Assembly: GCF_006345805.1 (NCBI RefSeq) | Contig: NC_042997.1 | Coordinates: 189,224,001 to 189,288,000, forward strand | Origin: Octopus sinensis | Lineage: Eukaryota | Direction of reading: 5' to 3' | DNA length: 64,000 bases | Part shown: piece after piece, positions 21,018 through 49,330 of the stretch | How the letters are laid out: every line of letters starts with the position of its first letter | Numbering within the stretch: position 1 is the first letter of the stretch | Position numbers and translations under genes: made by a program | The notes under the pieces: generated by a model | Databases searched by the model: none | Told to the model about the DNA's origin: nothing | What the model saw: the letters and a program-made list of their open reading frames with translations, nothing else

Positions 21018-21018
<1 letters not shown>

Positions 21019-21277
21019 TGTTGTGTGTCTGGGGAGAGTCATTTTCTTTTTGTGTCTTATAATGTAACGCACTCACCGGTAAAATGACTATTGAAAAGGT
21101 TGCAAGACGCAACGAAAATTTTAGAAAAATAAAAATAAGAAATAAGTGGAAATTTTACCGGTGAGTATGTTACATTATAAGGCACAAAAAGAAAATGACT
21201 CTCCCCAGACACAACAAAATATGCTTCAACACACGAACTCAAATAAAGAATCTTAAAAACCAAATCCCAAAACGAAA
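21018..21277 (+). mobile_element. Family E fold-back element (Penelope-style inverted arm plus tail) with hammerhead motif
   Basis: Arms about 21019-21085 and 21152-21216 are reverse complements, followed by a ~60-nt unpaired tail. Homologous to copies at 38841, 43800 and 49127. Confidence 0.8.
21088..21124 (+). ncRNA. Minimal type I hammerhead motif with compensatory U3-A8 core
   Basis: CUA-UUGAAAA-G-GUUGC-AAGAC-GCAAC-GAAA-A-UUU-UAG. Identical at 43810-43846(+); one stem I change at 38935-38971(-). Confidence 0.5.
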
Positions 21278-21290
21278 TATATATATGTAT

Positions 21291-21532
21291 ATGTTGTTGT
21301 ATTTAGGAATGGTCATGTTGCCAGTTTAGCCAATAAAAACACACGCACTATATATTTGGTGTTAATTTGCTTCAACTTTATTTTTTACATTAATCTTAAT
21401 CTTATTTCGGCCAGAGTTCTTTAACACCAAATATATAGTGCGTGTGTTTATATTGGCCAAACTGGCAACATGACCATCCCTAAATACAACAACATCTGTT
21501 TCAACACACGATTTCACATCAGAATCTTGCAA

Positions 21533-21535
<3 letters not shown>
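21291..21535 (+). mobile_element. Family F fold-back element with a tail homologous to family E
   Basis: Arms 21291-21365 and 21421-21496. Tail ttcaacacacgatttcacatcagaatcttgcaaaac. Non-inverted copy at about 50245-50528. Confidence 0.8.
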
Positions 21536-21609
<74 letters not shown>

Positions 21610-21632
21610 GCATATATTCTTCTATTCTTGTA

Positions 21633-22045
21633 TTCTTTTATCTGATTCAGTCATTTGACTGGCAGCCATGCTGGAGCACCACCTTTTAGTCGAACAAATC
21701 GACCCCAGGACTTATTCATTGTAAGCTTGGTACTTATTCCATCTGTCTCTTTTGCCGAACCACAAGTTACGGTGACATAAACACAGACACAAAGACACAC
21801 ACACTTAAATATATACATACGACGAGCTTCTCTCAGTTTCCGTCTACCAAATCCACGCACAAACCTTTGGTCGGCTCGAGGCTTTACTAGAAGACATTTG
21901 CTAGAGTAGATGACACTTATTTTTTACTTGTTTGTCATTTGACTGCGGCCATGCTGGGGTACTGCCTTGAAGAGATTTTAGTCGAACAAATCGACCCTTG
22001 TATATTTTTAAGCCTGGTATTTTGTCTATCGGCCCCTTTTGCCGA
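21633..22045 (-). mobile_element. Two truncated SINE-C copies
   Basis: cagtcatttgactg.gccatgctgg tail and cagtttccgtctaccaaatccac segment. Confidence 0.8.
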
Positions 22046-22587
22046 GAAAGCAATAATATTGATTGAATTTTATAGATTTCTTTTATATTAACACAGACGA
22101 GATTGTTATTTACTTTTGGTAGAAGTGGGGGGGGGGTCAATTACATTCAACTTGATTGGCGTTTATTTAACGACCTCGTTAAGGTTTGAACTGTAAACAT
22201 AAAGGGCTATTACTAAATACTATAAAGCACTTTGTCCAACGTTCTAACGCAGTGGCTACCAACATTTATCCTACCAAGGATATATTATATCTACATGAAA
22301 TTTCCTGCCGACCGCATGGTTGTGCAACATGTGCCTTCTCAACATATTTTGAATGCAGTTCAATGATCTCCAGTACTTGTCTTGCGAATCCTCAGGGATC
22401 AGTGGACTCCAGGCAGGAAACTGCTGCTCTATGGCGAGTGCTGATGCTAAAAGACAATCTTGGCAAGTGCCACAGAAGCAAGAATGAAGCTGTTTTACGT
22501 GTACAACCATCTGTCTCTTTTGGCGACGTATAATGTCAACTAAAAGACGATAGAATGAAATCTTGATTCTGTTATGTAATCATATTT

Positions 22588-23204
22588 GGTTTCAAATTTT
22601 GGCACAAGGCCAGCAAGTTCAGGGGAGGGGTTAAGTCGGTAACATCGACCCCAGTCCTCAACTGGTACTTATTTTATAGACCCCGAGAAGGATGAAAGGT
22701 AAAGCCGACCTCGGCGGAATTTGAACTCAGAACGTACAGACGTACGAAATGCCGCTAACCATTTTACCCGGCGTGCTAACGATTCTTATTTCTTTATTGA
22801 CCTCAAAGGGCTAAACATAGAGGGGACAAACAAGGACAGACAAAGGGATTAAGTCGATTACATCGACCCCAGTGCGTAACTGGTACTTAATTTATCGATC
22901 CCGAAAGGATGAAAGGCTAAGTCGACCTTGGCGGAATTTGAACTCAGAACGTAACGGCAGACGAAATACCTATTTCTTTTATTACCCACAAGGGGTTAAA
23001 CACAGAGGAGACAAACAAGGACAGAGAGATGGATTAGGTCGATTATATCGATTCCAGTGCGTAACTGGTACTTTTTTAATCGACCCCGAAAGGATGAAAG
23101 GCAAAGTCGACCTCGGCGGAATTTGAACTCAGAACGTAACGGAGGACGAAATACCGCTAAGAATTTCGCCCGGCGTGCTAACGCTTCTGCCAGCTCGCCG
23201 CCTT
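22588..23204 (-). mobile_element. SINE-A trimer with two junction types
   Basis: Junctions at about 22785 (aacgattct|tatttctttattg) and about 22970 (cgaaatacc|tatttcttt). Confidence 0.9.
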
Positions 23205-23374
23205 ATTTTAACAAACACTCGAGCCATTTTTCTGCTGACAATTAAAATTCCACCACTCACCTGATATGTAATCATATTTTACATATCACAAACACAGTCA
23301 CATATACACATATACACGCACATAGACGCGCAGACACACAGATACATACACACAGGCACATACATATATGTATG

Positions 23375-23668
23375 CCTTAATTTATATACTTGTTTATTTA
23401 TTTATTTGCGTTCTTCCTCAAGGAAGATAAAAGCTTCATCTCTGGAATTTGGAGAGCGACAACGATAACTGTTACATGTCGAACTTTAAGAGATTTGAAT
23501 ATTTTTGTTATTCCATTTGCAGATTGTATCAGTTCGAGTTAGCCGGTCCATGTCTTAGTTTGAAAATCCTAGCTTTCCAAAGGTTATCGCTTAGACGTTT
23601 ATAAGCATAACGAAATGCACCAATGGTTATTGGTATAAATGCAAATTGATAACCAGGATAGAGGAGCT
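23375..23668 (-). mobile_element. Dong/R4-clade (restriction-like endonuclease) non-LTR retrotransposon, degenerate 3' fragment
   Basis: QLLYPGYQFAFIPITIGAF...GITKIFKS plus 3' UTR. Bounded by CATA-type repeats on the sense strand. Confidence 0.75.
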
Positions 23669-23850
23669 GTATGTATGTAGTATGTATGTATGTATGTATG
23701 TATGTATGTATGTATTGTATGTATGTATGTATGTATGTATGTATGCATCCATGTATGTATGTATGCATGTATGTATGTATGCATGTATGCATATATGTAT
23801 GTATGTATGTATGCATATATGTATATATATATGTATGTATGTATGTATGC

Positions 23851-23883
<33 letters not shown>

Positions 23884-24495
23884 TGTATGTATGCATATAT
23901 GTATGTATGTATATATGTATGTATGTATGTATGTATATATGTATGTATGTATGTATGCATATATGTATGTAAGCATCCATGTATATATGTATGCATGTAT
24001 GTATGTATGCATGTATACATATATGTATGTATGTATGTATGTATATATGTATGCATATATGTATGTATGAATATATGTATGTATATGTTAATGTATGTAT
24101 GTATGCATATATGTATGTATATATGTATGTATATGTTTATGTATGTATGTATGCATATATGTATGCTATGTATGTATTGTATGTATGTATGTATGTATGT
24201 ATGTATGTATGTGTGTTCTCTTTCTCTTTTTAATTTTAGAGTAAATTTTACCGGCACCAACTCTTGGTAGCAATGGGCAAGGAGAGTATTTTGTTTTAAA
24301 CACACGTCCTTTAAATCTTAAGAAGGTCTTGCAGATTTTTACAGTTCCAGATATTGTTATCATTTGTAGCATATGAACTAAGAATTTGATGTATGTATGT
24401 AAATATTTTATTCAGTTTTATTTCGAGATTTCTTGCCAACAGAAAAAGAGCCGAGATCCAAGGCTCCACCATTGGAATTTTAACAATATGCATGC

Positions 24496-24528
<33 letters not shown>

Positions 24529-25019
24529 TGTATTATGTATGTATGTATGTATGTATGTATGTATGTATGTATGTATGTATGTATATGTATGTATGTATGT
24601 ATGCATCCATGTATGTATGTATGCATGTATGTATGTATGATGTATGCATATATGTATGTATGTATGTATGCATATATGTATATATATATGTATGTATGTA
24701 TGTATGATATATGTATGTATGTATGTATGTATGTAGTATGTATGTATGTATATGTATGTATGTATATATGATGTATGTATGTATGTATATATGTATGTAT
24801 GTATGTATGCATATATGTATGTAAGCATCCATGTATATATGATGCATGTATGTATGTATGCATGTATACTATATGTATGTATGTATGTATGTATATATGT
24901 ATGCATATATGTATGTATGAATATATGTATGTATATGTTAATGTATGTATGTATGCATATATGTATGTATATATGTATGTATATGTTTATGTATGTATGT
25001 ATGCATATATGTATGTATG

Positions 25020-25051
<32 letters not shown>

Positions 25052-25335
25052 TGTATGTGTGTTCTCTTTCTCTTTTTAATTTTAGAGTAAATTTTACCCG
25101 GCCACCAACTTGGTAGCAATGGTGCAAGGAGAGTATTTTGTTTTAAACACCGTCCTTTAAATCTTAAGAAGGTCTTGCAGATTTTTACAGTTCCAGATAT
25201 TGTTATCATTTGTAGCATATGAACTAAGAATTTGCATGTATGTATGTAAATTATTATTCAGTTTTATTTCGAGATTTCTTGCCAACAGAAAAAGAGCCGA
25301 GATCCAAGGCTCCACCATTGGAATTTTAACAATAT
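23669..25335. repeat. ~845-bp tandem duplication made of a compound (TATG)n tract plus two Dong/R4 3' fragments
   Basis: 24211-24490 matches 25057-25335, and the variant pattern of the TATG tract (gcatccat, gtaagcatcc, tatgttaat) is repeated. Confidence 0.9.
25060..25333 (-). mobile_element. Two very short Dong/R4 3' fragments separated by tacatacatacat (duplicated at 24214-24490)
   Basis: One encodes LVHMLQMITISGTVKICKTFLRFK. The other is a 3' UTR sharing tggagccttg.atct...cggctc with the 25896-25990 UTR. Confidence 0.75.
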
Positions 25336-25341
25336 GCATGC

Positions 25342-25374
<33 letters not shown>

Positions 25375-25425
25375 TGTATGTATGTATGTATGTATGTATG
25401 TATGTATGTATGTATGTATATGTGT

Positions 25426-25869
25426 AGTATTTAAAGTGGATGCATGTGCAGATTCTTATACAGTTCCAGTGCTGGCTTGGATCTATAGTCTTCGAATCTG
25501 CTTTCTCTTTTCTGGTCTTTTGAAGCCCAATTTCTCGAAATTGGTTCTTAGGTAGTGTAATACATATCAAAGAGCCTCAATAATTACAGGTATAAACCTG
25601 AACTTGTGATCTGGGTAGATTGACTGTAAATTTCTCAATAGTTCAGTGTAGGAATTTTCTTTTTCGCTCAACTTTAGCTGTTTGTTAACATCTGCTCGGC
25701 AGCTGATTTCTACTACTGTACACAGTTTCTCTTCTCTATCCCAAATCGCAATGCCAGGTCTGTTGTGTTTACATTTTATTGAGGTTTTTATTGGGACATT
25801 CTACCAGTATTCCTTATAATGAGTGGCTATGGCTTCAGCCATACTGTGGGTTCTTTTTCATTGCAGTCA
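25426..25869 (-). mobile_element. Dong/R4 fragment covering the endonuclease domain
   Basis: KEYW*NVPIKTSIKCKHNRPGIAIWDREEKLCTVVEISC...YPDHKFRFIPVII is a decayed PD-(D/E)xK RLE with in-frame stops. Confidence 0.85.
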
Positions 25870-25895
25870 GTATGCATGTATGTATGTATGTATGT

Positions 25896-26595
25896 CTCTT
25901 CCATTTTTTAATTATTATAATTCTTCCACTGAGGAGGGAGCCGGTTTCCAACAAAGATACAAGGCTCCATTTTTGGGATGTAGTCAACACAGACAAATTC
26001 ACATTTGGAACTTGAGAAAAGTCTTGCATATTTTTACTGTCCCATCACAGATTGCACTTGTACGAATTAGCCAGTCGATTTCTCTGTGAAAATCTCAGTT
26101 TATCCAGATTCTCCTTTAAGCATTTACTAATAAAACCTAGTGCTCCAATTATTATTGGTATGACTATGAATTCGTAGTCTGGATATAGAAGTTGGAGGTT
26201 TCAAAGCAGTTGTCCATAGATATCCTCTGTGATGGTACATACCTTTGCCCCTCTGTCCTAAACAACAATATCCGGCCTGTTATGTTTACATTTGACAGAA
26301 GTTTTGATGAGAATATTTCACCGGTATTCCTTGATTTGGTTTTATGAATGTATTCCATAACAGAGGGATTTTTAAAGTATATTTCAGGACAGTCTTTTTT
26401 GCGGATGGTTTTGTAAATTGTTTTGGCAACAACATCGTGTCGCATAGGGAGGTAGCACCGTGACGACATTTTAGGACAGCTGCTAATCACACGCGTGATG
26501 TCTTCCACAAAGACATGACATAGCCTACACATGCAGTTGCACCTTAGGATTACAAGAGCATCATTGTCTCTCGTGTTCACCAGGTACTTTGTGAG
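25896..26595 (-). mobile_element. Dong/R4 fragment: zinc knuckle, RHD motif, internally deleted RLE, C-terminus and 3' UTR
   Basis: CRLCHVFVEDITRVISSCPKMSSRCYLPMRHDVVAKTIY...PDYEFIVIPIIIGALG...TVKICKTFLKFQM*. Flanked by TATG tracts at 25870-25895 and 26595-26680. Confidence 0.9.
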
Positions 26596-26994
26596 TATGT
26601 ATGTATGTATGTATGTATGTATGTATGTATGTATGTATGTATGTATGTATGTATGTATGTATGTATGTATGTATGTATGTCGCTACCTTAATATTTTGTC
26701 AAGGGCACTAGCGTCATGAGCAAAAGCATTTCCAACAGGTAATTGAAACCAGCCAGAAAACTCATTTCATCGGTCACTCACCACTGCTTTGAAATGAAAC
26801 ACACACATACACGCGCACGCACGCACCACACACACACACACATAAAGAAATACATACATACAAACAAAAACATACTAAGAATCACATAAACACAGATATT
26901 TATTTGTGTAAACACAAACTCAAACAACAATATATTAAGTACTCTTTCTCTCGTTTTGCATCTCGAAATGCTTGAATGTGTGTGCGTGTACGTA

Positions 26995-27040
26995 CGTATG
27001 TATGCATATATGTATGCACACACACACATATATATATATT

Positions 27041-27098
<58 letters not shown>

Positions 27099-27201
27099 GC
27101 ACAACATATATATACTATATATGTATATGTATATATATATAGAATATATATATATATTATATATATATATATACACGACACACAATATATATACATATAT
27201 A

Positions 27202-27249
<48 letters not shown>

Positions 27250-27500
27250 TATATTATATACGCACACACATATATATACATATATATTGTATAGTGTATA
27301 TATATAATATATATAATATATAATATATATATATATATATATATTATATACGCACACACATAATACATATATATGTATATGTAATATATATAATATATAT
27401 ATATATATATTATATATTATATATATATATATACGCACACACATATATGCATGCCATATATATATATACAAGCATATACGCATACACATGCAGATATATT
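26995..27500. repeat. Degenerate (TA)n tract
   Basis: Directly visible. Confidence 0.95.
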
Positions 27501-27959
27501 CATGGTAAACAATTTTGTTAACCGAAGTATGCTGAAACGATAAGCAATGCCAAGAGAGAAAGAAAAATAAAGACGGGAACAAAACAAGAGGTAAAAAAAA
27601 AAATGTAAATAATGTAAATAGCCAAAAAAAAAAAAAAGAAAGAAAAAAAGCGAACAGAAATTAAAAAAGAATATGACAACGAAAGATATTCAGTTAAGTA
27701 AGAATGCCAGAAACCTTGAAATACGGATGCGTGCGTTTATGTGCGTTTATGTGCGTTTGTGTGTGCACTTGTGTGTGCGTGCGTGCGTTTATGTGTGTGT
27801 GTGTGTGTGTGCGTTTATGTGTGTGTGTGCGTGTGTGTGTGTGTGTTCTAATCTATGTAAAGCTGGTTTACGATTCCTTGCTCTTCGTTTTTTTTTTGTT
27901 ATTTTGTTATAACTTGCACTAGCAACATGGACAGTTCTACGTAAGAGAACAACAGCAAT

Positions 27960-27960
27960 T

Positions 27961-27996
<36 letters not shown>

Positions 27997-28031
27997 CTGC
28001 ACTACTACTACTACTACTACTACTACTACCA

Positions 28032-28068
<37 letters not shown>

Positions 28069-28086
28069 CAGTACCACCAGCACCAG

Positions 28087-28117
<31 letters not shown>

Positions 28118-28159
28118 AGCACCGTCACCACCACCACTACTATCACTACTACAACTACA

Positions 28160-28227
<68 letters not shown>

Positions 28228-28334
28228 CATCACCACTATCACCACCACCATCACCACTACCACCATCACCACTACCACCATCAACACCATCACCACTACA
28301 ACACAACAACAACGACGACACGACGACGACGACG

Positions 28335-28414
<80 letters not shown>

Positions 28415-28722
28415 AGTTGCTGCTGCAATTGCTCTCGTTATTGTTGGTGGTGGTACAGTAACAGTTAAACAAGCTGAAGAACTAAGTAAGAGCCGGAATA
28501 ACAGCAACAGCAACAATAACAACAACCTCCACCTCCTCCTCCTCCTCCTCCTCATCATCATCATCACTATCATCATCATCATCATCATCATCATCGTCAT
28601 CTTCATTTCCAGCAACAACAACGGCAACAACATCAACAAACGATAACCGCATCTTCAAGACCAACAGCAGAAATAACTACTACAACAAGGACGAGAGCAA
28701 CAAGAGCAACAGCACCAATAAA

Positions 28723-28755
<33 letters not shown>

Positions 28756-28835
28756 ATGCACATTAAACAACAACAATAACCACAGCAATAACAGCAGTAG
28801 CAGCAGTAGCCGTAGCAGCAGCAGCAGCAGCATTG
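27960..28835. repeat. Mosaic trinucleotide repeat tract (TAC, CAC, CAT, CAG, CAA, GAC, CTC)
   Basis: Directly visible; blocks change by single substitutions. Confidence 0.95.
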
Positions 28836-29358
28836 ACAGCGAGGATAGAAGATACAATAACAAAACCAACAAAAAAAAAAAAGCAATGGCGAACGTCAAT
28901 ACGGACAATTTATTAATAAATGTAACTTATTTCTTGTTAAGTTGTTGTTTATATTGTACTCCAAAAGTTATCAGAATTTTAATATGGCCGCAGGGCTTCC
29001 TATCTCAATGCAAAGAGTTTACAAAGTAAAAACTCTTTGCATTTCATGCAACCGCATCTTCACAGGCACACGCACGCACCGAACACACACACACACACCA
29101 CACACACACACATGCACGTACACACTCATGCGCACAAGCACAAATATATATATGAGTTAAGATATTTACTCGTGAGTATACATACATACATATATACATA
29201 TATATATATACATAAAGTCCGTTTCCATGTTTTTCTTTTTATGCTTTCGTTTCTCATTGTGTTCAACGTATTTTTGTTGTCCTGTACCCATATATGCATG
29301 TATATACATATAGATGTAGGTATGTACATATATGTATGTATATATATTATTTTGTTAG

Positions 29359-29410
<52 letters not shown>

Positions 29411-29492
29411 TAATGCAATACGAGAGTATTGCTTTCCAGTAAAGAATAGCCCGTGAGGGAAAATTATACATAGAAGTAAATATATTTACTTC

Positions 29493-29535
<43 letters not shown>

Positions 29536-29686
29536 CGTAATTGAAAGTTCATAAACCAGATAGATAAAGTATGGAAAATATGTAAATGGATTTTCGTATG
29601 CATAAACACACATGCAAATATACTTAAGTATCTATACAAACACACATGTACTATACCCTCAATATCATATCCTATCATATCAAATC

Positions 29687-29762
<76 letters not shown>

Positions 29763-29992
29763 GTGATACACGATCCCTATTGATTGTTTTTTCTTTTTAC
29801 TTTCTTTTTTTTCCCGATCCCTTTTGATCGAAAACCTACCTCCCCCTTTTTTTTCTCCCCAAAAGAAAAGCTCTACTTTGTAATTGTCCCCTGTGTGGCT
29901 AATAGAGAAACATATCTATCTATAGGCATTCTGTATAGTAGTAGTGGTAGTAGTAAGTAGTAGTTAATGCTGTTCTCTTACGTAGAACTATA

Positions 29993-30044
<52 letters not shown>

Positions 30045-30266
30045 CACACACTCACATACATACAAACACAAACACGCGTACATAGGTATGTCATTATGTA
30101 TGCGCTTGTATATATATATATACACACATATGAAGTTGGTAACGTGCTTAGTGCATAGTGCATGTAAGGAAAGGATCAAGAAACGGACGGAAAATGGCCG
30201 AACAGATAGATATGAAGTGCGAATAAAGCAGACCAACACAAAGTATGTGTATTTTATAAACACACG

Positions 30267-30337
<71 letters not shown>

Positions 30338-30490
30338 ACACACACACCCGCGAGAGCGTATGTGTGCGCGCGTGTGTATGCGTATATGGATGTGAGAGAG
30401 TGGAGCAAGTTAAGAAACTGAGAAAAAAGAGAGTAAGCTATAAACGGGGGAACACACAACCCCTCTCGCCATCTCTGTGTGCGTGTGAGC

Positions 30491-30527
<37 letters not shown>

Positions 30528-30678
30528 TATATATATTAATAATATATAATAATATATAATTATATGCATATATGCATACATATATATACAGTACATATAT
30601 GTATGTATACATGTATATTTATTATATATTTTGTATTATTATATGATCGAACGCCACGCATACTTTTCCAAGTAAGTT

Positions 30679-30757
<79 letters not shown>

Positions 30758-37553: not shown

Positions 37554-37601
<48 letters not shown>

Positions 37602-38188: not shown

Positions 38189-38352
38189 GGAGTGGCTGTG
38201 TGGTAAGTAGCTTGCTAACCAACTACATGGTTCCGGGTTCAGTCCCACTGCGTGGCATCTTGGGTAAGTGTCTTCTGCTATAGCCCCGGGCCGACCAATG
38301 CCTTGTGAGTGGATTTGGTAGACGGAAACTGAAAGAAGCCTGTCGTATATAT

Positions 38353-38388
<36 letters not shown>

Positions 38389-38612: not shown

Positions 38613-38840
38613 ATGTCTCTACAAATGGCCAGTGGCATATGTTATACTAGTCAAAACTGGATTTGTATTCTCTTTCGTCGTAAGCCGGTTTTGTTATTTT
38701 CCTTGAAGTGGTTCAAAAGGTAATGAATTCGATCTAAAATGTAATAATTTAAAGGCCCTTTCCTTCCGCTTTCATATGGTTCCTTTCTAATGAATTACAA
38801 ATTATTATCATTTACGTTTTTAGTGCGACTAACAACTAAA

Positions 38841-39055
38841 TCTGTTGTGTCTGAGGAGAGCCATTTTCTTTTTGTGCCTTATAATGTAACACACTCACCG
38901 GTAAAATTTCCACTTATTTCTTATTTTTATTTTCTTAAAATTTTCGTTGCGTCTTGCAACCTTTTCAATAGTCTTGACTCTCCCGAGACACAACAGAATA
39001 TGCTTCAACACACGAACTCATATAAAGAATCATGCAAACCAAATCCAAAACGAAA
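38841..39055 (+). mobile_element. Family E fold-back element with 12-bp TSD
   Basis: Long inverted arm switches to the sense arm at microhomology tgactc (about 38975). TSD taacaa[c/t]taaat at 38830-38841 and 39056-39067. Confidence 0.8.
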
Positions 39056-39125
39056 TAACAATTAAATGCTATCAATAAACTGAAAGATAGCTATTAATGC
39101 CCTCATATATATTTTATACCTGTTA

Positions 39126-39168
39126 TATACTGACAATCGTTCCGGGATCACTCCCTCATCTGTGTATA
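39126..39168 (-). ncRNA. Decayed type I hammerhead motif
   Basis: UAUAC-A-CAGAUGA-GGGA-GUGA-UCCC-GGAA-C-GAUU-GUC-A-GUAUA: GUC triplet, perfect stem II, three deviations from consensus. Confidence 0.45.
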
Positions 39169-39863
39169 TTTGTAGAATTTAAAGTCAAAATTCAATTCAT
39201 ATCGTTTCCTTTTCTTTTGAAATTTTGAAGTGAATACATAATACTTGATGCCCGGAAGATATAACGATTGAATCGAAACAGAGAGAAACACGATTATTCT
39301 TGCTCTAAATTCCTATTATTCATATGATATGATATAATATAAAGTTGTGTCTCATTAATGACTGCTAAGTTGTAGCTTGTGTTGGAGACATTAATTATTA
39401 TATATAGGACGGGATTCTTTCAGTTTCCGTCTACCAAATCCACTCACAAGGCTTTGGTCGGCCCGAAGCTATAGTAGAAGACACTTGCCCAAGGAGCCAC
39501 TCAGTGGGACTGAACCCGGAACCATGTGATTGGGAAGCAAGCCTGTGTAGCTTATGTAACTACACAGAGGAAGATTTTATTTTGAGGAAATTTGAACAAC
39601 GTACTTGATCTGTTACGCACTTTAGAAGTATAACTTTGGATTATTATTGATGTACAGTTAATGTCTGATTTGCTGATCATTAGGGAAATGCATAGTAAAG
39701 TTCAATAGTCAATTAAATTTTGCTGACGGAAAGGACAAATCTAAACAGTAAACTTAAGTGTGCACTAATTAGAGAATGAAATAATAATTACTATCTCCTT
39801 GAGAAGATACAACGCTTATGAGAGCACAGAAAGACACACATGCACACACAGACACAGACACAG

Positions 39864-39906
<43 letters not shown>

Positions 39907-40056
39907 TGCGTAAACACTCATGTAAGTATACATGTTTCCTTCGTTTCATTTCTGCCTCATTAGCACGGGAACTGTAGGATGAAACCGCGTCTTAAGGACG
40001 AGGAGGGAAAATAAGACGACAGCAATAATGATGCTGACAATGATATTGATGACGAA

Positions 40057-40115
<59 letters not shown>

Positions 40116-40130
40116 ATAATAATAATAAAA

Positions 40131-40526
40131 ACTTTTACTTTTACTTTTACTTGTTTCAGTCATTTGACTGTGGCCATGCTGGAGCACCGCCTTTAGTCGA
40201 GCAAATCGACCCCAGGACTTATTCTTTTGTAAGCCTAGTACTTATTCTATCGGTCTCTTTTGCCGAACCGCTAAATTACGGGGACGTAAGCACACCAGCA
40301 TCGGTTGTCAAGCGATGTTGGGAGGACAAACTCAGACACACAAACATACACACACACACACACATACACATATATATATACATGTACATATATACGGCGG
40401 GCTTCTTTCAGTTTCCGTCTACCAAATCCACTCACAAGGCTTTGGTCTGCTCGAGGCTATGGTAGAAGACACTTGCCCAAGGTGCCACGCAGTAGGACTG
40501 AACCCGGAACAACCACTCCTGTGCCT
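40131..40526 (-). mobile_element. SINE-C copy; further minus-strand copies at 39409-39543, 41664-41975, 47411-47836, 50535-50948, 56780-57205 and 60545-60880
   Basis: All are collinear with the reverse complement of 38189-38612. Confidence 0.9.
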
Positions 40527-40925
40527 ACTATTTTGATTTTTTAAATTATTTATGCTGTTGTTAATAGTAATGGTGGAAATTTTTAGAACGGCTGATCACT
40601 CGCTAATGATTCTAGTCGATTAAGAGATAATCTAGAACTAGAAAAATCAACAAAAACTAAGCGTCAAAAAAGGAAGGTAAGACACAAACTCACAGAGGTT
40701 CCAAAACATATCCAGCTTCGCCAATAAAGAACAAGAAGAAGAAAAATACAACAGTATTTTTCTGTGAATCGAATGCAAAATTATAGAAAGCGAAAAAGGC
40801 AAAAAATGGAACGTTTCGAACTTCGGTATTCTTCCTGTTTTAGAAGAAAGAAAAACCAGCTGGTAACTATTTAGAACTTCTGCGAGTTATTACCTACTGT
40901 GCGTTTATATGAACGAGTATTTACC

Positions 40926-41338
40926 TATTTCTTTACTACCCACAAGGGGCTAAACACAGGGAACAAACAAGGACAGACAAACGGATTAAGTCGATTACAT
41001 CGACCCCAGTGCGTAACTGATACTTATTTAATCGACTCCGAAAGGATGAAAAGCAAAGTCGACCTCGGCGAAATTTGAACTCAGAACGTAGCGGCAGACG
41101 AAATACCTATTTCTTTACTACCCACAAGGGGCTAGACACAGAAGGGACAAACAAGGACAGACAAACGGATTAAGTCGATTACATCGACCCCAGTTCGTAA
41201 CTGGTACTTAATTTATCGACCCCGAAAGGATGAAAGGCAAAGTCGACCTCGGCGAATTTGAACTCAGAACGTAGCGATGGGCAAAATACCGCTAAGCATT
41301 TCGCCCGGCGTGCTAACGTTTCTGCCAGCTCGCCGCCT
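40926..41338 (-). mobile_element. SINE-A dimer with perfect 18-bp TSD
   Basis: tatgaacgagtatttacc at 40908-40925 and 41339-41356. Internal junction at about 41108. Confidence 0.9.
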
Positions 41339-42049
41339 TATGAACGAGTATTTACCGGCGTTTAACTGACATACACGCATACAAACGAATGCATTCATTC
41401 ATAAGAAATAAAGCATCTGCGTAGGGCTTTCTAGGCAGGTATTCTGCTGTTTCAGAAGCAGCTGCATAAACAATGAAATCATGAAAGCACGTTAAAAACA
41501 TCCGAATGAATTTAATTCATTTGGTTTCTGACTAAAGATTCAAAACTTTAGATGTAACAACACTCTATGATGGAATTTGGAACATGTCCAAATCCCGAAT
41601 ATCTAAAAGTATGATTGCACTCGTAGACACCCATGCAGCGACATATTACACACTTTTATAACAACTCTTTTACTTGTTTCAGTCATTGGAGTGTGGCCAT
41701 GCTGGAGCACCTATTGAAGAGTTTAGTCGGACAAATCGGCTCCAGTACTTATTATATCAGTCTCTTTTGCCGGACCGTTATGTTAGGAGGATGTCAAGCG
41801 GTGTAGAGACAAGCACAAAGACATGCGCACTCTCACATACATATACACACACGACACAGTTTTCAGCAATCAAATTCACTGACAAGGCATTGGTCGACTC
41901 TTGCCATCAATAAAAGACCGTTTTCCAAGGTGTGCGTAATGGGTGTGAACCCTATCTAAAATCATGTGGTTGGGATATACCAGCAGATAGTTCTTACACC
42001 ATTTTGCATATAGTCATAGACAGCAAAACACATACCTTGTGTATGTGTA

Positions 42050-42513
42050 CCGTAAATCCTCGAGTATAGCCCACAGGAGATTTTTAGGGGTCTGTACCTC
42101 TGAAAAACCTAAACCTTGTGTATAATACGCACCCCTTCTCTAACTTGAGTCAAGGAGGTCTATATAACGTCCTTGGTTTGTAAAACTATATACAGTAACG
42201 ACCTTTATTATTATTGTATGTATAACATAATGCAAACGTGTAGCTTTTTCTTGCATTTTGTTTGCAGAAAATAAAGAAATAACAGTAATAACGTTTAATA
42301 AATGTTGCTTACTGCAAGTTATGGATGATTCTTTTATGACTTCATTGCTTTCAGGCTTAGCTTAAGGTATTTTCGCGTCTGAATAAACATTGCCGGACAG
42401 CAAATAGAGACTCGGACATTGCTTAGAAAATATTTTTCATTTTTAACCTTGTATATAGTACGCACCAGGGATTTTGACCTTTAAATTTTGGGAAAAATGC
42501 GGATTATACTCGG
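42050..42513. mobile_element. Tc2/pogo-like MITE, TA TSD, right TIR partly deleted
   Basis: ta|ccgtaaatcctcgagtatagcc at left versus ggattatactc...gg|ta at right. Confidence 0.65.
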
Positions 42514-42559
42514 TATTCAATATTGTTTATACCTCTCGAGCTACTTCTAATTCATACTT

Positions 42560-42887
42560 GAGGTTTTTCCTTGGTCATCCCAGTAGTTGTAGGGGCACTC
42601 GGAGCTTTAACAACGAAGTTCGAGAAATATGTTGGAGAAAATGGAATTGACATAAGGATAGAGCACGCTAAAAAAAAAAAAACTGATCTATTGGGGACAG
42701 TGAGGATTTTGAGATTGGTACTTGGTCGTTGAGTATCATCCACAATATTAAAAATCTAGGTACCAAGTCTGATAATTGGTGGAAAGAGAACCTGAGAGAC
42801 CTTGTGAAACCTTTGACAACAGGTTGCCGTCCGGTCTCACAGTATTTACCGGAGCGAGCAAGATAGAGAACTCTGAGAGGTAAAATA
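42560..42887 (+). mobile_element. Dong/R4-clade 3' fragment ending in (TAA)n
   Basis: VIPVVVGALGALTTKFEKYVGENGIDIRIEHA/KTDLLGTVRILRLVLGR* is a canonical R4/Dong C-terminus. The 3' UTR is followed by (TAA)n at 42888-43020. Confidence 0.85.
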
Positions 42888-42908
42888 TAATAATAATAAT
42901 AATAATAA

Positions 42909-42958
<50 letters not shown>

Positions 42959-42975
42959 TAATAATAATAATAATG

Positions 42976-43007
<32 letters not shown>

Positions 43008-43020
43008 GATAATAATAATA

Positions 43021-43524
43021 AATGCCCTGATACAATACCAGGCATTGGATTTGAAAGAGTTATGTATATTGTTTTGTCTTGGTATAAAAGATGGGCTATA
43101 GCAAATATTCTGCTCAATACCTCAGATTTGCTTGTCAGTTGTTTGACCTTAATCAGTTGAGCATGTCTCTTGGTGGCTGACGATATGTGCATCTCTGATC
43201 ACGAGCAGAAGTAGCGAGGGAGCATCATAACCATGTGTTGAGAGGAATTCTTTGGGGTTTGAATTATTCAATAATTCACTTTTGGGAACATGGGCGTTCT
43301 GTTCAACTCCTCAAAAAACCGTTATCCAGGGACTTTTTGAGTGGGATGGGATACTCGACCTGAAGAAAATTCTAACTGGGCCCCACCTGTAAGGTCATGA
43401 GCTGTTTATCTTGATGCATGTGCCTGGTGTACCCTTATCAGACGGGTAGTCATAATGGGTGTACTGGGCTTTGTATATTTGTATCCCAGTGTTACTTTGA
43501 TGGCTCGCTCTGCTCTCTCACTCA
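43021..43524. mobile_element. ~500-bp non-coding segment bounded by (TAA)n on both sides; probable TAA-targeted non-autonomous element
   Basis: Sharp rise in GC between two TAA tracts. Single copy in this window. Confidence 0.4.
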
Positions 43525-43803
43525 ATAATAATAATTGATAGAATTAACACTATTATAATTAAGCTTTGTAATTTACCTGCATCGGAGATCCGTCAATGGA
43601 AGCTGATTCATAAGTCTGACCGAATTTGAACTTGAATGTTCTTCCCTTGGGTACTCCTACAATACCAACATTGATTTCCCAGGTATCATCACTCAGTTTT
43701 TTATATTCAATCTCTGTACGGGCTGCTCTATACCACTCCTTCTTCTCGGCGGGCAGTCCTGTGGAGTAGAGAAATAAATAAAAATGTCATATGTTAAAAA
43801 GAG

Positions 43804-43943
43804 TCAAAACTATTGAAAAGGTTGCAAGACGCAACGAAAATTTTAGGAAAATAAAAACAAGAAAAAAAAAGTGGAAATTTTACCGGTGAGTGTGTTATAT
43901 TATAAGGCGCAAAAAGAAAATGACTCTCCCCAGACACAACAGA
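43804..43943 (+). mobile_element. Family E element without inverted arm, 14-bp TSD
   Basis: atatgttaaaaaga at 43790-43803 and 43944-43957. Contains the hammerhead motif at 43810-43846. Confidence 0.8.
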
Positions 43944-44371
43944 ATATGTTAAAAAGATATAGCTAAAAGGAGTGAAAAAAAAACAAACAAAATAAAACAA
44001 TATTAAAAAGATAAGTTTGCAAACGTTATTCGAAACAGGTCATTTGTCTATAGACAGTAATTTAGAGAGCCATGGCAACGCAGTTGGGACGAGTTCCATT
44101 ATAAATAAGAACTAATATAAAGATTGGACTTCAACGCTAAAATGTTTAACAATCTTATAATTCTTTCAAAAATAATCCCTATCAAAACGTAAAGGGAACA
44201 AGAGGGTTTCTGGCTTCGTTGCTGTGACAAGATTACAGCAATCACACTTGTATAAGGGATATTTCAACCACCGCCACCACACATGTATGTATGTATGTAT
44301 GTATGTATGTATGTATGTATGTATGTATGTATGTATGTATGTATGTATGAATGTGTGTGTATGTGTGTATG

Positions 44372-44402
<31 letters not shown>

Positions 44403-45429
44403 ATGTATGTATGTATGCAAATGGTCCCCCTACCAAAAAAAAAAACGGCCAATGCTATTGTGTAATATACATTGCATAACATGAATGATTAAATCTTTCT
44501 TATCATCCATGTGTGATTGTTTAATTCATGTTGTTGAAACAATTGTAAACCATGGAATAATGTTATGCCACCCTTTACTTATACATACATACATACATAC
44601 ATACATACATACATACATACATACATACATACATACATACATACATACATACATACATACGTACATACATGTATATAATATAACATTACATAGTATAATT
44701 ATATTGTATAATATATATAATATAATATTCATGCTTAATCTTTCTCCTAGTTGCATTAACACAAGGCGTTCATTCGCCGTTTTCATATATTCCACAAATT
44801 CTTCCTGCAAACTACAACACGCTTTGAACATTTATCAATCTAATAATATGGGAAAAGGACGAGGAATTCTGTGTCTTGGAGAGACATGCGTTCGAAAATT
44901 ATCGCAGAATGAAATCAAATATCGAGACCTGCACCAAAAATTTCAAATATTCGGGCTAGATATCGTTGCAAATTATCTTAATCTAGAGCGACAACTATAA
45001 AGGCGGCATTACGGGGATATTGGGTGTTCAGAAGAGTGGTGAATAAAAAAAATTTAAACCAGAGAGAGTACTTAAATTTTTAAAATACATTATATAAATC
45101 TTTGCTGGGAATAACATATGAGCAGTGTTATCAGTAAGAATATGACTGATGATGCCCCAGGGACGAATGTAATTCATTATATAACTCCTCGTCTTCTTTA
45201 GGAATTTTCATAAAATTTAAACATGGAAGGCACTAGTTTACGCAAATTATGGGATAGTACCAGAAAATATAGATAAAAAAACCAATGTGCAAAATCAGTT
45301 TTTGTTTGATTAAATAATTTGATTTTATTTCGTCAAAACACAGAGAATGGTATTATTTATAAAACATCATTCGGTGAAAGTGAGATATGATCATTTATAA
45401 AACATTTATAAAATGATCATTTATAAAAC

Positions 45430-45665
45430 AAAGGCGGCGAGCTGACAGAAACGTTAGCACGCCGGGCGAAATGCGTAGCTGTATTTCGTCTGCCGTTATG
45501 TTCTGAGTTCAAATTCCGCCGAGGTCAACTTTGCCTTTCATTCTTTCGCGGTCGATTAAATAAGTACCAGTTACGCACTGGGGTCGATATAATCGACTTA
45601 ATCTGTTTGTCTGTCCTTGTTTGTCCTCTCCGTGTTTAGCCCCTTGTGGATAGTAAAGAAATAGG
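45430..45665 (+). mobile_element. SINE-A monomer (tail 2) within locally duplicated atcatttataaaaca sequence
   Basis: Intact head to gtaaagaaatag. The flanking motif is repeated on both sides. Confidence 0.9.
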
Positions 45666-46039
45666 TATCATTTATAAAACATCAGAGTGGTATCATTTAT
45701 AAAACATCATTCGGTGAAAATGGGCTGTGATCTAGAAAAGTTTCTGAGCCACTGTTTTAAAGTATTAAAACAGATTATCTAACCTGAAAATTTGACAATC
45801 TTAGTTTAGAAATTTTGGCCTTATCATTATGAGTCACGTAGTTTCATACTTTATATGGATCCTTATAATGGTTTCATTAAGCTTTACTGCTGATTATTAT
45901 CATTTCTAGCCGACGGTTTTAAGTCATTCATGAGCAAAAATTATTGTGTTGGAAATTGATATAGTTTATTCGAAAATCTATGCTGCAAAGATCAAAGCTT
46001 CAGTTTCAAGCTTCATGGAAATTTTCGTTAGCCACACCG

Positions 46040-46330
46040 TTGATTTTTGTTGTCTGGCCTACTCCATCCCCATATCGCTTTTAACTTGACCAATAGATTC
46101 TTTTGTTCGTCAGTCAAACTTTCTTTCCGCCAGTTTTAATCTTTTCTTCAACATCTGTGATCTGGGATGCGTTTACTCTTTCAATAAGCTATTCCAAATC
46201 GTTCTTTACATACCAAACAACACCATTCTCTTCTGCTTCTATGCACTTTTCACATTCAATCAGATATCCTCTTGCAGCTGTAGTTATATGTATGAATGAT
46301 CGGTCCCGTTTTCAGATGGAATGTAGCCTC
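46040..46330 (-). mobile_element. Old Dong/R4-like internal fragment (post-RT region)
   Basis: RGYLIECEKCIEAEENGVVWYVKNDLE*LIERV resembles the GGRGLI.CE.C...EEN.L.WYV motif. Confidence 0.55.
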
Positions 46331-46397
46331 AGTTATTCTATTTTTCTATTGTTTCAACTATACATACGTATACATACATAATACCGCACACACACAC

Positions 46398-46744
46398 TTT
46401 TCGTTTTGGATTTAGTTTGGAAGACTTTAGATGTGAACTCGTGTGTTGAAACAAATTTTGTTGAATCTCGTGAGGGTTATTACTCCAATAATAAGCAAAC
46501 ACCCTGGTTAAGTTTTTTTCTTTATTATTTGTTAATTGGTTAGTTATTTAATCAACCAGCTAATCGATCGCCTCTTTAATCAGTGAGTTGTTGAGGTCAT
46601 GAATAGCAACAAAAGGATTTTCACAAACAACTGATTGCTTATTCAACCGACTGATTAAGCTAGCAGTCGATTAATTGGCTGATTAAATAACTAACCAATT
46701 GACTACTAATATTATCATTATTGGAGTAATGGCCCTCCCAAAAT
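46398..46744 (-). mobile_element. Family G fold-back element with the E/F-type tail
   Basis: Tail reverse complement at 46398-46465. Arms gagggttattactccaataat...aattggttagttatttaatca versus tgattaaataactaaccaatt...attattggagtaatggccctc. Confidence 0.7.
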
Positions 46745-46809
<65 letters not shown>

Positions 46810-46816
<7 letters not shown>

Positions 46817-47147
46817 AAATCCGTTCTGTCTGTCTGTCAGTGTGTCTTCTAGGATCTCGGGCATCCTCCATCTGATTGCGCTCAAGTTTGATATGTATGA
46901 GTCTTGAAAAGATTACAAAAATCGATTCCAGGTGAGAATGCAATTGATAAAGTGAATAAAATCGTTTTTCTTTGGAATAGAAAAAAGTCTATCTTTATTT
47001 CTTCTTTTGCTGGTGTCTCAAATTTAGGTTAAATCAGTGTTTCTCAAAGGGGAGGCCTATGGGACGGTGGGACAAGTTGTTTTGAGAAAATTTGGTTTAA
47101 ATGTTTGACAACTCAGCGCCGTCCATTGGACGGGGGGCGTTTGCTCG
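46810..47147 (+). mobile_element. Non-autonomous Helitron family 2
   Basis: Starts in (TA)n-aaaatccgtt. Subterminal hairpin ccgtccattggacgg. The second copy at 63559-63777(-) ends in CTAG|T. Confidence 0.75.
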
Positions 47148-47174
47148 TGTATATATATATATATATATATACGT

Positions 47175-47403
47175 TATTTCATGTTGCCCCTATCCATTCA
47201 GCTGGCAAAAATGAGTAGTACCTGTATTTCAAAGGCCAGTCTAGTCATATATCCTGTGTCACGCTGAATCTCCCTGAGAACTATGTTAAGGGTACGCGTG
47301 TTTGTGACGTACTCAGCCACTTGCACGTCAGTTTCACGAGCAAGATGTTCCATTGATCGGATCAACTGGAACACTCGTCGTCGTAACCGACGGAGTGCCA
47401 GTT
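47175..47403 (+). mobile_element. 5'-truncated CORE-like SINE with a distinct tail
   Basis: Starts with the family D CORE end tcagctggcaaaaatgagta, then diverges. Confidence 0.6.
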
Positions 47404-47607
47404 GTTATTATACTCTTTTCTTGTTTCAGTCATTTGACTGTGGCCATGCTGGAGCACCGCCTTTTAGTCGAGCAAATCGACCCCAGGACTTATACTTTGT
47501 AAACCTAGTATTCTATCGGTCTCTTTCGCTGAACCGCTAAGTTACGGGGACGTAAACACACCAGCATCGGTTGTCAAGCGATGTTGGGGGGACAAACAGA
47601 CACACAA

Positions 47608-47645
<38 letters not shown>

Positions 47646-48243
47646 AAACAGACACACATATATACATATATATGACGGGCTTCTTTCAGTTTCCGTCAAC
47701 CAAATCCACTGACAAGGCTTTGGTCAGCCTGAGGCTATAGTAGAAGACACTTGCCAAAGGTGCCACACAGTGGGACTGAACCCTGAACCATGTTGTTGGT
47801 AAGCAAGCTACTTACCACACAGCCACTCCTACGCCTATACTTTATAAATCTGATAAAAATATTCACTGCTTATATATTTTCATTTTTTTTATTTGTTTCT
47901 ACAACCGCGTAACACGCACACTATTGATGTTTGCTTTCTTCTTATAACAGATTATGCAAATTGGTTTCATATATACCACATAGTGTAATGTTACTTTTAT
48001 AACATTTTAATGTGCAGAAGTGTACGTAACAAACCCAGTTAACAAAATGCTTTTCATTCTCATGTTCACGATTTTATCAAATTCATTAAATTCAAGTTTG
48101 TCCTCAAGTTACCAAGTACTGGAATGTATCAGCCGTACGCGTCCAGTAATCGGTAGGAAGTACATAAGGAGGTAATAAACGATGCTTAAATTAATATATA
48201 AAATTTCAATATAAAGCAATTTTAGTTTTCCATTCAAGTGAAT

Positions 48244-48560
48244 GTGGAGGCGCAATGGCCCAGTGGTTAGGGCAGCAGACTCGCGGTCGGAGGATCGCGG
48301 TTTCAATTCCCAGACTGGGTGTTGTGTGTGTTTATTGAGCGAAAACATCTAAAGTTCCACGAGGCTTCGGCAGGGGGTGGTGGCGACCCCTGTTGTACTC
48401 TTTCGCTCCAACTTTCCCTCACTCTTTCTTCCTGTTTCTTGAGTAACGCTGTGATGGACTGGCATCCCGTCTAGCTGGGGGGAACACATACGCCATAGAA
48501 CCGGGAAACCGGGCCCATGAGCCTGGCTAGGCTTGAAAAGGGCGCATAAATAAATAAAAA
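48244..48560 (+). mobile_element. SINE-B type 2 (B head and middle + D tail), perfect 12-bp TSD
   Basis: attcaagtgaat at 48232-48243 and 48561-48572. Confidence 0.9.
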
Positions 48561-49126
48561 ATTCAAGTGAATATTAATAATTAGATGTTATATGATCTAA
48601 ATTATTTTGAATACAGAGTTTCTTCATCAAATTCGTTGTCAACCTCAATCTAGTCAACGTCAACTTCATATTCGTCGATCAGTATACGTATTTACTAACG
48701 TAAGCACATATATTACCATCACCGGATTCACTTTGATTACCGGTGATAATTGTTTTGGATTCTTTTTAGAAATATGTTAAGAGAGTTGAGAAATGGAAAT
48801 AATGAATAAAAAGTCAAACTAATGCCATTTATTTTTGTATATGCATATAGTATGATATTAATAGTTATCGCCAAGCTAACATGGCAGTCCAGAAAAATAG
48901 GATGAATGCTGCCGTTGATTAGCTCTAAGAGACCATCGCCTCTAGCTAGCTATAGAGAGAATTAGAAATAATGATATTTCTATATAGTATGAGTTTTACG
49001 TATATATAATTGATTAAATTTACATATCCTAAAATCCTTAAAAATGTTTCAGCCCTAAGGCTGCGGCCATGCTGAGGCACCACCGCTGAAATATATTTAT
49101 TATAATATATTTATTATAATGTAAGA

Positions 49127-49330
49127 TATTCTGTTGTCCCTGGGGAGAGTCATTTTCTTTTTGTGCCTTATAATGTAACACATTCATCGGTAAAATTTCG
49201 ATTTATTTCTTATTTTTATTGTAAAAAGGCACAAAAAGAAAATGACTTTCCCCAGACACAACAGAATATGCTTCAACGCACGAACTCATATAAAGAATCT
49301 TGCAAACCAAATCCAAAAGCGAAATGTAAC
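49127..49330 (+). mobile_element. Family E fold-back element with 22-bp TSD
   Basis: atatatttattataatgtaaga at 49105-49126 and 49331-49352. The hammerhead region is absent from this copy. Confidence 0.8.

What the first reader, a model, noticed from the sequence alone, without database searches (positions are those of the whole stretch)
21018..49330. Three unrelated fold-back families (E, F, G) share one ~50-nt terminus and one insertion architecture
Seen: E (21018, 38841, 49127, 43804), F (21291, 50245) and G (46398) have different bodies but the same tail (ttcaacacacga..tca.at..ag..tctt.caaa.c). The fold-back copies consist of an inverted arm, a sense arm and an unpaired tail. The outer end of the inverted arm is fixed where the tail starts, while the inner switch point varies (microhomology tgactc at about 38975). 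TSDs are 12-22 bp. E and F also contain hammerhead motifs. Known: inverted pseudo-LTRs with a short tail extension are a Penelope-like element hallmark. Inference: a set of 150-350-bp non-autonomous parasites recognised through a common tail by one Penelope-type RT/GIY-YIG machinery.
Basis: partly seen in the sequence, partly recalled or inferred. Interest (0 to 1): 0.75.

Follow-up and report, generated by a model that had tools for sequence, protein, structure and literature searches.

The report
Short ends of octopus Penelope retrotransposons
The hairpin-shaped repeats are real but ordinary: two of the three families are shown, and the third is likely, to be short end pieces of related protein-coding Penelope-like jumping genes, and their shared tail is the start of that protein gene, where the copying enzyme likely begins.

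Summary
The shared terminus, the inverted arms with a fixed outer end, the variable inner switch and the 12-22 bp target duplications are real. The reading as unrelated non-autonomous parasites is not supported. E and F bodies lie just downstream of a GIY-YIG gene end in 26 of 29 loci each. F has stop-free RT+GIY-YIG frames of up to 1044 aa. E and F proteins are 60% identical. G-type bodies are tied to the same ORF type more weakly. The shared terminus is the first 27 codons of the ORF, with third-position changes dominating. The bodies are homologous pLTRs (hammerhead, GTG.GTGTGTT motif, ATG, tail). All of this is described for Penelope-like elements, and this scan found such octopus stumps before on other DNA. 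Two numbers add something. Exactly one arm carries the tail in 30 of 31 classifiable head-to-head insertions. E arms that pass the hammerhead stop within 15 nt upstream of its core in 19 of 21 cases. Both fit paired priming at two fixed start sites, with run-off at the RNA's 5' end (inferred).

The parts
21018..21085 (-). E copy 1, inverted arm without tail (element positions about -12 to -73 from the tail start), in a TA run
21086..21277 (+). E copy 1, sense arm: hammerhead, 5' UTR, ORF start and tail
21088..21124 (+). Minimal type I hammerhead motif, U3-A8 core, palindromic AATT in place of stem III; cleavage untested
   Evidence: sequence; variant described in PMC4209133
21195..21277 (+). 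Shared terminus = first 27 codons of the family E ORF; tail proper 21225-21277
21291..21422 (-). F copy 1, inverted arm without tail (-5 to -140), directly after E copy 1 in the same TA run
21422..21536 (+). F copy 1, sense arm with ATG at 21470 and a shortened tail from 21500
38841..38980 (-). E copy 2, inverted arm (-7 to -144) holding the hammerhead at about 38935-38971; its 5' end is at the preferred E boundary
38975..39057 (+). E copy 2, sense arm (-29 to +54) with tail; TGACTC microhomology 38975-38980; 12-bp target duplication 38830-38841 / 39056-39067 with one mismatch
43802..43948 (+). E copy 3, single arm (-144 to -2), no tail, no inverted arm; 14-bp target duplication 43789-43802 / 43944-43957
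46398..46589 (-). G copy, sense arm with tail (46398-46450); start codon decayed at 46480
46588..46748 (+). G copy, inverted arm without tail, with a decayed hammerhead at about 46585-46624; arms 68% alike (old copy); outer end placed by eye
49126..49220 (-). E copy 4, inverted arm (-3 to -97)
49222..49328 (+). E copy 4, sense arm (from -50) with tail; 22-bp target duplication 49105-49126 / 49331-49352
50238..50527 (+). F copy 2, single arm (-293 to -8), no tail; hammerhead 50364-50408 with C3-G8 core and C at position 9

Best explanation
E and F are short insertions of the terminal repeat (pLTR) of two sister protein-coding Penelope-like retrotransposon families, G likely of a third and older one, and their shared terminus is the first 27 codons of the RT-endonuclease gene, inside which reverse transcription likely starts. 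Shown: the intact unit reads 3' UTR, hammerhead, short 5' UTR, ATG, tail and then the rest of a single ORF (Asn-rich N-terminus, RT, CX4CxxC linker, C-terminal GIY-YIG). Insertions end either at the tail's end (about +52 to +57) or just before it (about -2 to -4), and head-to-head pairs carry exactly one tail. Inferred, by analogy with the in vitro work on the anole element (PMC11167929): the RT-endonuclease, probably as a dimer, makes a staggered cut 12-22 bp wide in AT-rich DNA. One target end primes cDNA at +55 and the other at about -3. The two cDNAs stop at variable points and are joined through microhomology, which gives an inverted arm, a sense arm and one unpaired tail. Inferred and less sure: many E stumps are short because copying began at the start sites in the first pLTR of the transcript and ran off its 5' end near -147. 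Each family is probably moved by its own protein.
For: E body 385-1155 nt downstream of a GIY-YIG end on the same strand in 26 of 29 loci; F body 346-536 nt downstream in 26 of 29 (seed loci left out). F frames of 695-1044 aa without a stop in 8 of 8 hand-picked loci. RVT_1 E 4e-4 to 3e-3 (below the Pfam cut-off); GIY-YIG E 1.5e-6 for the E protein, above the cut-off. E and F proteins 60% identical. Body plus tail run on into the 5' ORF in 9 of 30 F loci picked by 5' ORF DNA; in L299 the frame is open for 224 aa from that ATG. An E body precedes the ORF start in 12 of 40 hand-picked loci. Differences by codon position: E/F 4, 3, 12; E/G 2, 2, 7; F/G 3, 1, 7. A G profile scores best downstream of a GIY-YIG in 3 of 30 loci, one of them the seed (E 1e-12 to 1e-20), and at one ORF start (L323, E 3e-5). 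One tail in 30 of 31 classifiable pairs, p 1.5e-8. Stumps and ORF-linked E copies intermix on a tree, and nearest-neighbour identities are alike at 0.90-0.97. Precedent: pLTR plus tail equals the first 22 aa of a rotifer Penelope ORF (PMC3846280); tail = stretch between two RT start sites (PMC11167929).
Against: No G copy close to the window's own was found joined to an ORF: 0 of 30 loci picked by the G body show ORF remains within 1.5 kb, and the linked G-type bodies are only about 70% alike. The same test is nearly blank for the linked families too (E 0 of 30, F 2 of 30). On the E tree the stump label is mildly clustered (11 changes against 15.2 shuffled; 7 of 500 shuffles as low), the two sets were picked by different queries, and only 1 of 43 branches is strongly supported. 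The sharp 5' boundary is seen in E only, was found post hoc, and F shows none near its hammerhead. No start site, cleavage or priming was measured. Endonuclease resolution of a DNA intermediate could also give one tail per insertion (PMC8557442).
Confidence: 0.88

Rival explanations
1. Solo pLTR-tail units have become self-propagating passengers: a roughly 200-nt E unit (and perhaps G) is transcribed on its own and re-inserted in trans by Penelope proteins. This is a weaker form of the first reader's idea.
For: 19 of 21 E arms that reach the hammerhead core end within -134 to -149, where 2.9 were expected. 0 of 30 G-body loci reach an ORF. Non-autonomous PLE derivatives and trans-mobilisation through pLTRs are described (PMC8557442; PMC3846280; bioRxiv 10.64898/2026.07.22.740005).
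Against: Stumps are no more alike to each other than to ORF-linked copies and do not form a clade. The bodies are the families' ordinary pLTRs. None of the seven window copies is a tandem array of the retrozyme kind.
Confidence: 0.15
2. Same elements, different origin of the fold-back: the one-sided tail arises when the endonuclease resolves a folded or self-primed DNA intermediate by two staggered cuts, not from two RT starts on RNA.
For: It also predicts exactly one tail per insertion. It is proposed in PMC8557442, and self-priming in PMC3846280.
Against: In vitro, the anole element's two RT start sites match the two tail ends (PMC11167929). Both arms are independently truncated and overlap to variable extents, with a microhomology join at E38841.
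Confidence: 0.25
3. One machinery serves unrelated bodies that converged on, or captured, a common tail.
For: The termini are 77-86% alike between families while the bodies fail plain BLASTN.
Against: The bodies are collinear homologues. E and F each have their own ORF, whose N-terminus carries the family's tail variant. Third-position changes dominate.
Confidence: 0.03
4. DNA-type MITEs with terminal inverted repeats.
For: Inverted ends and target duplications.
Against: Arm lengths and duplication lengths vary (12-22 bp), the tail is one-sided, and the bodies run into an RT gene.
Confidence: 0.01

Closest known systems
Insertion units of endonuclease-positive Penelope-like elements with inverted pLTR and one-sided tail (PMC8557442, passages and Fig. 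2 legend; PMC3846280, passages)
   Same: 5'-truncated arms, adjacent inverted copy, tail on one end, target duplications, TA-rich targets, partial tandems, pLTR plus tail equal to the first codons of the ORF, Asn-rich ORF insert.
   Different: The tail here is about 55 nt (30-40 described) and the duplications 12-22 bp (8-10 in the rotifer copies). The one-tail rule is counted here (30 of 31).
PAc (Poseidon of Anolis carolinensis; PMC11167929, first two of four text parts read)
   Same: Hammerhead in the pLTR, tail inside the start of the ORF, two fixed ends, AT-rich targets.
   Different: There the ORF starts inside the hammerhead and the starts lie over 110 nt into it. Here the ATG is 104-135 nt downstream of the core and the ends lie at codons 9-10 and 27-28. 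The octopus proteins have the Zn-finger linker that Poseidon lacks.
Neptune/Nematis-type C-terminal EN+ PLEs (PMC8557442)
   Same: C-terminal GIY-YIG with two Cys in the core and a downstream HxxxxH, CX4CxxC linker, DKSG.
   Different: No tree with named references was made, so Neptune and Nematis are not told apart.
Minimal hammerheads of metazoan PLEs (PMC4209133, first two of four text parts read)
   Same: Type I, extra base before stem II, little or no stem III, U3-A8 variant, motifs on opposite strands 100-700 bp apart.
   Different: Sister families here show C3-G8 (F), U3-A8 (E), mostly U3 with G8 (G) and G3-C8 (H) within one lineage.
Metazoan non-LTR retrozymes (bioRxiv 10.64898/2026.07.22.740005, first of five text parts read)
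   Same: PLE-related, type I hammerhead, a few hundred nt.
   Different: Retrozymes are tandem arrays without an ORF. These are dispersed one- or two-armed ends of ORF-bearing elements.

Membership tests
EN+ Penelope-like element (E, F) | Single ORF with RT and GIY-YIG endonuclease joined to the repeat | tested here: met
   RT Pfam scores are below the cut-off, but YVDD and the other motifs are present
EN+ Penelope-like element (G) | Body joined to an RT/GIY-YIG ORF | tested here: inconclusive
   G profile best in 3 of 30 GIY-YIG loci and at 1 ORF start; 0 of 30 closest G-body loci
EN+ Penelope-like element | pLTRs in direct or inverted arrangement, partial tandems, one-sided tail | tested here: met
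EN+ Penelope-like element | Hammerhead motif in the pLTR | tested here: met
   (motif only)
EN+ Penelope-like element | RT groups with PLE/telomerase RTs in a phylogeny | not testable with these tools
   no named PLE reference sequences were among the fetched data
Neptune/Nematis type | CX2-5CxxC linker before a C-terminal GIY-YIG with CCHH | tested here: met
   (E, F; linker also in H)
Neptune/Nematis type | Placement in the Neptune or Nematis clade | not testable with these tools
   needs Repbase or published alignments as input
Hydra clade | DKT and RWK motifs, CxCX5C linker, no CCHH, under 3 kb | tested here: not met
   DKSG, no RWK match, CX4CxxC, ORF over 3 kb
Naiad/Chlamys | N-terminal GIY-YIG | tested here: not met
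   the endonuclease is C-terminal
Non-autonomous PLE-dependent element / retrozyme | No ORF-bearing form of the same body | tested here: not met
   (E, F); weaker for G
Non-autonomous PLE-dependent element / retrozyme | Own lineage apart from ORF-linked copies | tested here: inconclusive
   E tree intermixed but weakly supported, mild clustering; F and G not tested
Non-autonomous PLE-dependent element / retrozyme | Self-cleavage and circular RNA | not testable with these tools
   no raw RNA reads listed
MITE | Fixed terminal inverted repeats and constant-length target duplication | tested here: not met

The most novel reading that the evidence does not exclude
These stumps record the Penelope insertion reaction. 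Every two-armed insertion uses the two RT start sites as an obligate pair, one per target strand. Most short copies are not abortive products but complete run-off copies from the start sites in the first pLTR of the transcript to its 5' end (about -147 in E). A Penelope element would thus shed a defined 200-nt ribozyme-bearing unit as a by-product, the raw material for retrozymes and PLE-dependent SINE-like passengers.
Probability: 0.4. Interest if true: 0.55.

Novelty: new member of a known kind. Interest (0 to 1): 0.22.

Why it matters
As a finding it is ordinary: it classifies three abundant octopus repeats as Penelope-like ends and explains their common tail as coding sequence. Its use is as test material. 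F has near-identical 5' copies (98-100%) and long open frames, so it suits an in vitro test of how these elements insert. The one-tail rule and the E 5' boundary give sharp predictions for that test. Sister families also supply a natural series of the hammerhead 3-8 base pair.

Tried and rejected
Rfam scan of the window: the 150 best of 246 matches shown were all microRNA-family hits on microsatellites and hairpins, below the gathering scores; no hammerhead family was among those shown. A strict CTGANGA...GAAA search missed both E and F motifs because their cores are variant. tblastn of the E and F proteins against the window found nothing, so no ORF-bearing copy lies in it. Pfam GIY-YIG search of the genome: only 1 of the 30 fetched loci (L138) carried an E, F or G body; most belong to another PLE family about 25% identical. 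A stem between the 5' UTR motif GTGTGTT and AACACAC in the tail is possible in all families (91.5% of cells paired), but it shows no two-sided change, a consensus energy of -0.3 kcal/mol and folding no better than shuffles. It is kept as a lead only. The same motif resembles a splice donor; no joint at that place was seen in contigs, which cannot settle it. No RNA holder on record was listed; contigs of four runs were laid and are not used as evidence of expression or copy number. A phage collection search was empty. In alignment A2 the rows L281, L244 and L232 were mis-picked stretches and were ignored. A clustering of 5' ends at the predicted ribozyme cut (five E arms at -99 to -103, two F arms at -131) is too weak to use. 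One search timed out. Five paper searches returned no paper describing these particular octopus families; Repbase and Dfam were not available.
Full report
Setting. The window is G000:C1:189224001-189288000 in a 2.72 Gb genome. The F protein is 98% identical to a predicted protein labelled Octopus vulgaris (P0006), so the host is an octopus. Positions given as + or - numbers count from the first base of the tail (TTCAAC).

Observation. All seven copies exist. Five have an inverted arm, a sense arm and a tail. E43804 and F50245 are single arms that stop at -2 and -8. The first look of genome searches with the termini gave 1104 (E), 1426 (F) and 758 (G) candidates, 40 scored each, and I took the top 30 loci of each. 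An inverted arm was found in 20, 22 and 8 of 30. Its outer end lies mostly at -2 to -12, and in two loci the inverted arm also carried a tail (the window copies are among these loci, and L048/L049 are duplicates). Target duplications of 12-17 bp were found in 11 of 13 E, 5 of 7 F and 0 of 6 G loci with non-repetitive flanks, against 0 of 228 swapped-flank controls. The window shows 12, 14 and 22 bp, and the TGACTC microhomology at 38975-38980.

The bodies are related. E, F and G align in the same order: hammerhead, AT-rich spacer, GTG.GTGTGTT motif, ATG, tail (three mis-picked rows ignored). The hammerhead 3-8 pair is C-G in 35 of 40 F motifs and U-A in 19 of 23 E motifs (the script's other calls include false motifs). 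It is U with G in 8, U-A in 2 and C-G in 2 of 12 motifs from G-selected loci. U3-A8 and opposite-strand motif pairs are described for truncated PLEs (PMC4209133, first two of four text parts read). Cleavage was not tested.

They are ends of coding elements. F copies extended upstream into a GIY-YIG C-terminus, and one of 30 Pfam GIY-YIG loci had an E body downstream. Searching with these two domains gave 151 and 150 matches of 150 scored candidates each. Among the top 30 of each, with the seed locus left out, 26 of 29 have the E body 385-1155 nt downstream and 26 of 29 have the F body 346-536 nt downstream, on the same strand. Eight hand-picked F loci hold stop-free frames of 695-1044 aa; the longest E frames with the endonuclease are 413-428 aa. 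Pfam gives RVT_1 below its cut-off for F and GIY-YIG above it for E. DKSG, YVDD, a CX4CxxC linker and the GIY-YIG Cys/His residues are present. E and F are 60% identical. This is Neptune/Nematis-type anatomy and excludes Hydra and Naiad by the definitions in PMC8557442 (passages, section 11 and three supplement look-ups). No tree with named references could be made.

The tail is the start of the gene. In 9 of 30 loci picked by F 5' ORF DNA, body and tail lie in sense directly before the ORF. In L299 the frame from the ATG at -30 is open for 224 aa. From 149 matches to that N-terminus I picked 40 by hand. Twelve have a clear E body before the ORF start, three an F body, one a G-like body (L323) and one is between E and G (L342). 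The majority peptides are MTLPRHNKICFNTRTQIKNLANQIPKR (28 E loci), MTIPKYNNICFNTRFHIKNLAKQIYKR (30 F) and MTLPRYNKICFNTRVHIKNLANQIQKR (20 G). Differences by codon position are 4, 3, 12 (E/F), 2, 2, 7 (E/G) and 3, 1, 7 (F/G). So the terminus is conserved as coding sequence while the untranslated body drifts. The same arrangement is published for a rotifer element, where pLTR plus tail equals the first 22 aa (PMC3846280, passages), and for the anole element (PMC11167929, first two of four text parts read).

G is less firmly tied. Its closest copies are 74-82% alike and 0 of 30 show ORF remains within 1.5 kb; tail-picked E and F loci give 0 and 2 of 30 in the same test. A G profile scores best downstream of a GIY-YIG in L261 (the seed), L265 and L281, of 30 loci, where E scores best in 15. 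Those bodies are intermediates about 70% like the window's G. G is most simply the oldest of several waves.

Mechanism. In loci not picked by the tail, arm ends fall into two groups, near -2 to -4 and near +52 to +57. Of 38 head-to-head pairs, 30 have one tail, 1 has none, 0 have two, and 7 could not be classed; 30 of 31 gives p 1.5e-8 against free assortment. The tail sits on the ORF-bearing arm or on the inverted arm. With the in vitro result that the tail lies between two RT start sites and that both target strands are cut and extended (PMC11167929), the likely reaction is paired priming, one start site per target strand, followed by a microhomology join. This is inferred. Endonuclease resolution of a DNA intermediate (PMC8557442) remains a rival.

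An extra feature of E. Of 53 E arms, 21 reach the hammerhead core at -134 and 19 of these stop by -149, where 2.9 were expected from the truncation rate nearer the tail (p 7e-15, post hoc). I dropped two values by hand, a cross-hit to the F tail and a partial arm in L018; counting the latter gives 19 of 22. Endonuclease-picked loci continue past this point in 15 of 20 by a strict pattern, against 3 of 27 stump contexts, so it is not an alignment artefact. The boundary lies upstream of the ribozyme, not at its predicted cut (-103). It likely marks the RNA's 5' end. F shows no such peak near its hammerhead. On a tree of 20 stump and 26 ORF-linked E bodies the labels intermix, with weak support and mild clustering. 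A separate non-autonomous lineage is not shown, and not fully excluded.

Known or new. The architecture, the hammerheads and the coding tail are in print. Penelope-like elements are listed as abundant and partly recent in Octopus vulgaris (PMC13282606, passages). Five paper searches found no description of these particular families; Repbase, Dfam and bioRxiv supplements could not be seen and may hold them. Earlier notes of this scan report octopus Penelope stumps, two fixed starts and a G3-C8 core on other DNA; they are unchecked notes, not support. Verdict: new members of a known kind, interest 0.22.

Noticed in passing
L325:798-986 (+), L330, L331, L332, L343, L344, L110: A fourth sister family (H), 54% identical in protein to E and F, with the same coding tail and a hammerhead core swapped to G3-C8 in the 3 true H motifs called; no copy in the window.
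   Followed up: partly
window 50370-50377; F loci: Many F copies, including those of the young subfamily with long open frames, have C in place of the conserved A9 of the hammerhead core; this may mean relaxed need for cleavage.
   Followed up: no
window 21018-21536: An E and an F fold-back sit back to back in one TA run, likely two separate insertions into the same target; L159/L225 shows an F fold-back directly after an E end too.
   Followed up: partly
L358:890-7018: Eight repeats of a 5' piece of the F-type ORF (from +34, about 395 nt period, 78% to L294), without the pLTR.
   Followed up: partly
L059/L060 (G000:C1:157894993-157895913); L098/L099: Head-to-tail repeats of F ends with periods of 844 and about 407 nt.
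   Followed up: no
L299:1043, runs X1, X5, X9; L339, L352: Several contigs match F from exactly the ATG onward with other sequence before it, suggesting further sister families whose likeness starts at the start codon.
   Followed up: no
L127, L128 and most of L132-L150: Another, very abundant and young GIY-YIG retroelement family with frames of up to 883 aa, only about 25% identical to E and F.
   Followed up: no
window 4432-4878 (+): 149-aa open stretch resembling the C-terminal part of a LINE-type (RTE-like) ORF; the name is recalled, not tested.
   Followed up: no
window 2289-2592, 5142-5436, 48244-48541, 54281-54464, 55745-55934: Another dispersed repeat family of about 300 nt with a tRNA-like end on one side (by eye).
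   Followed up: no
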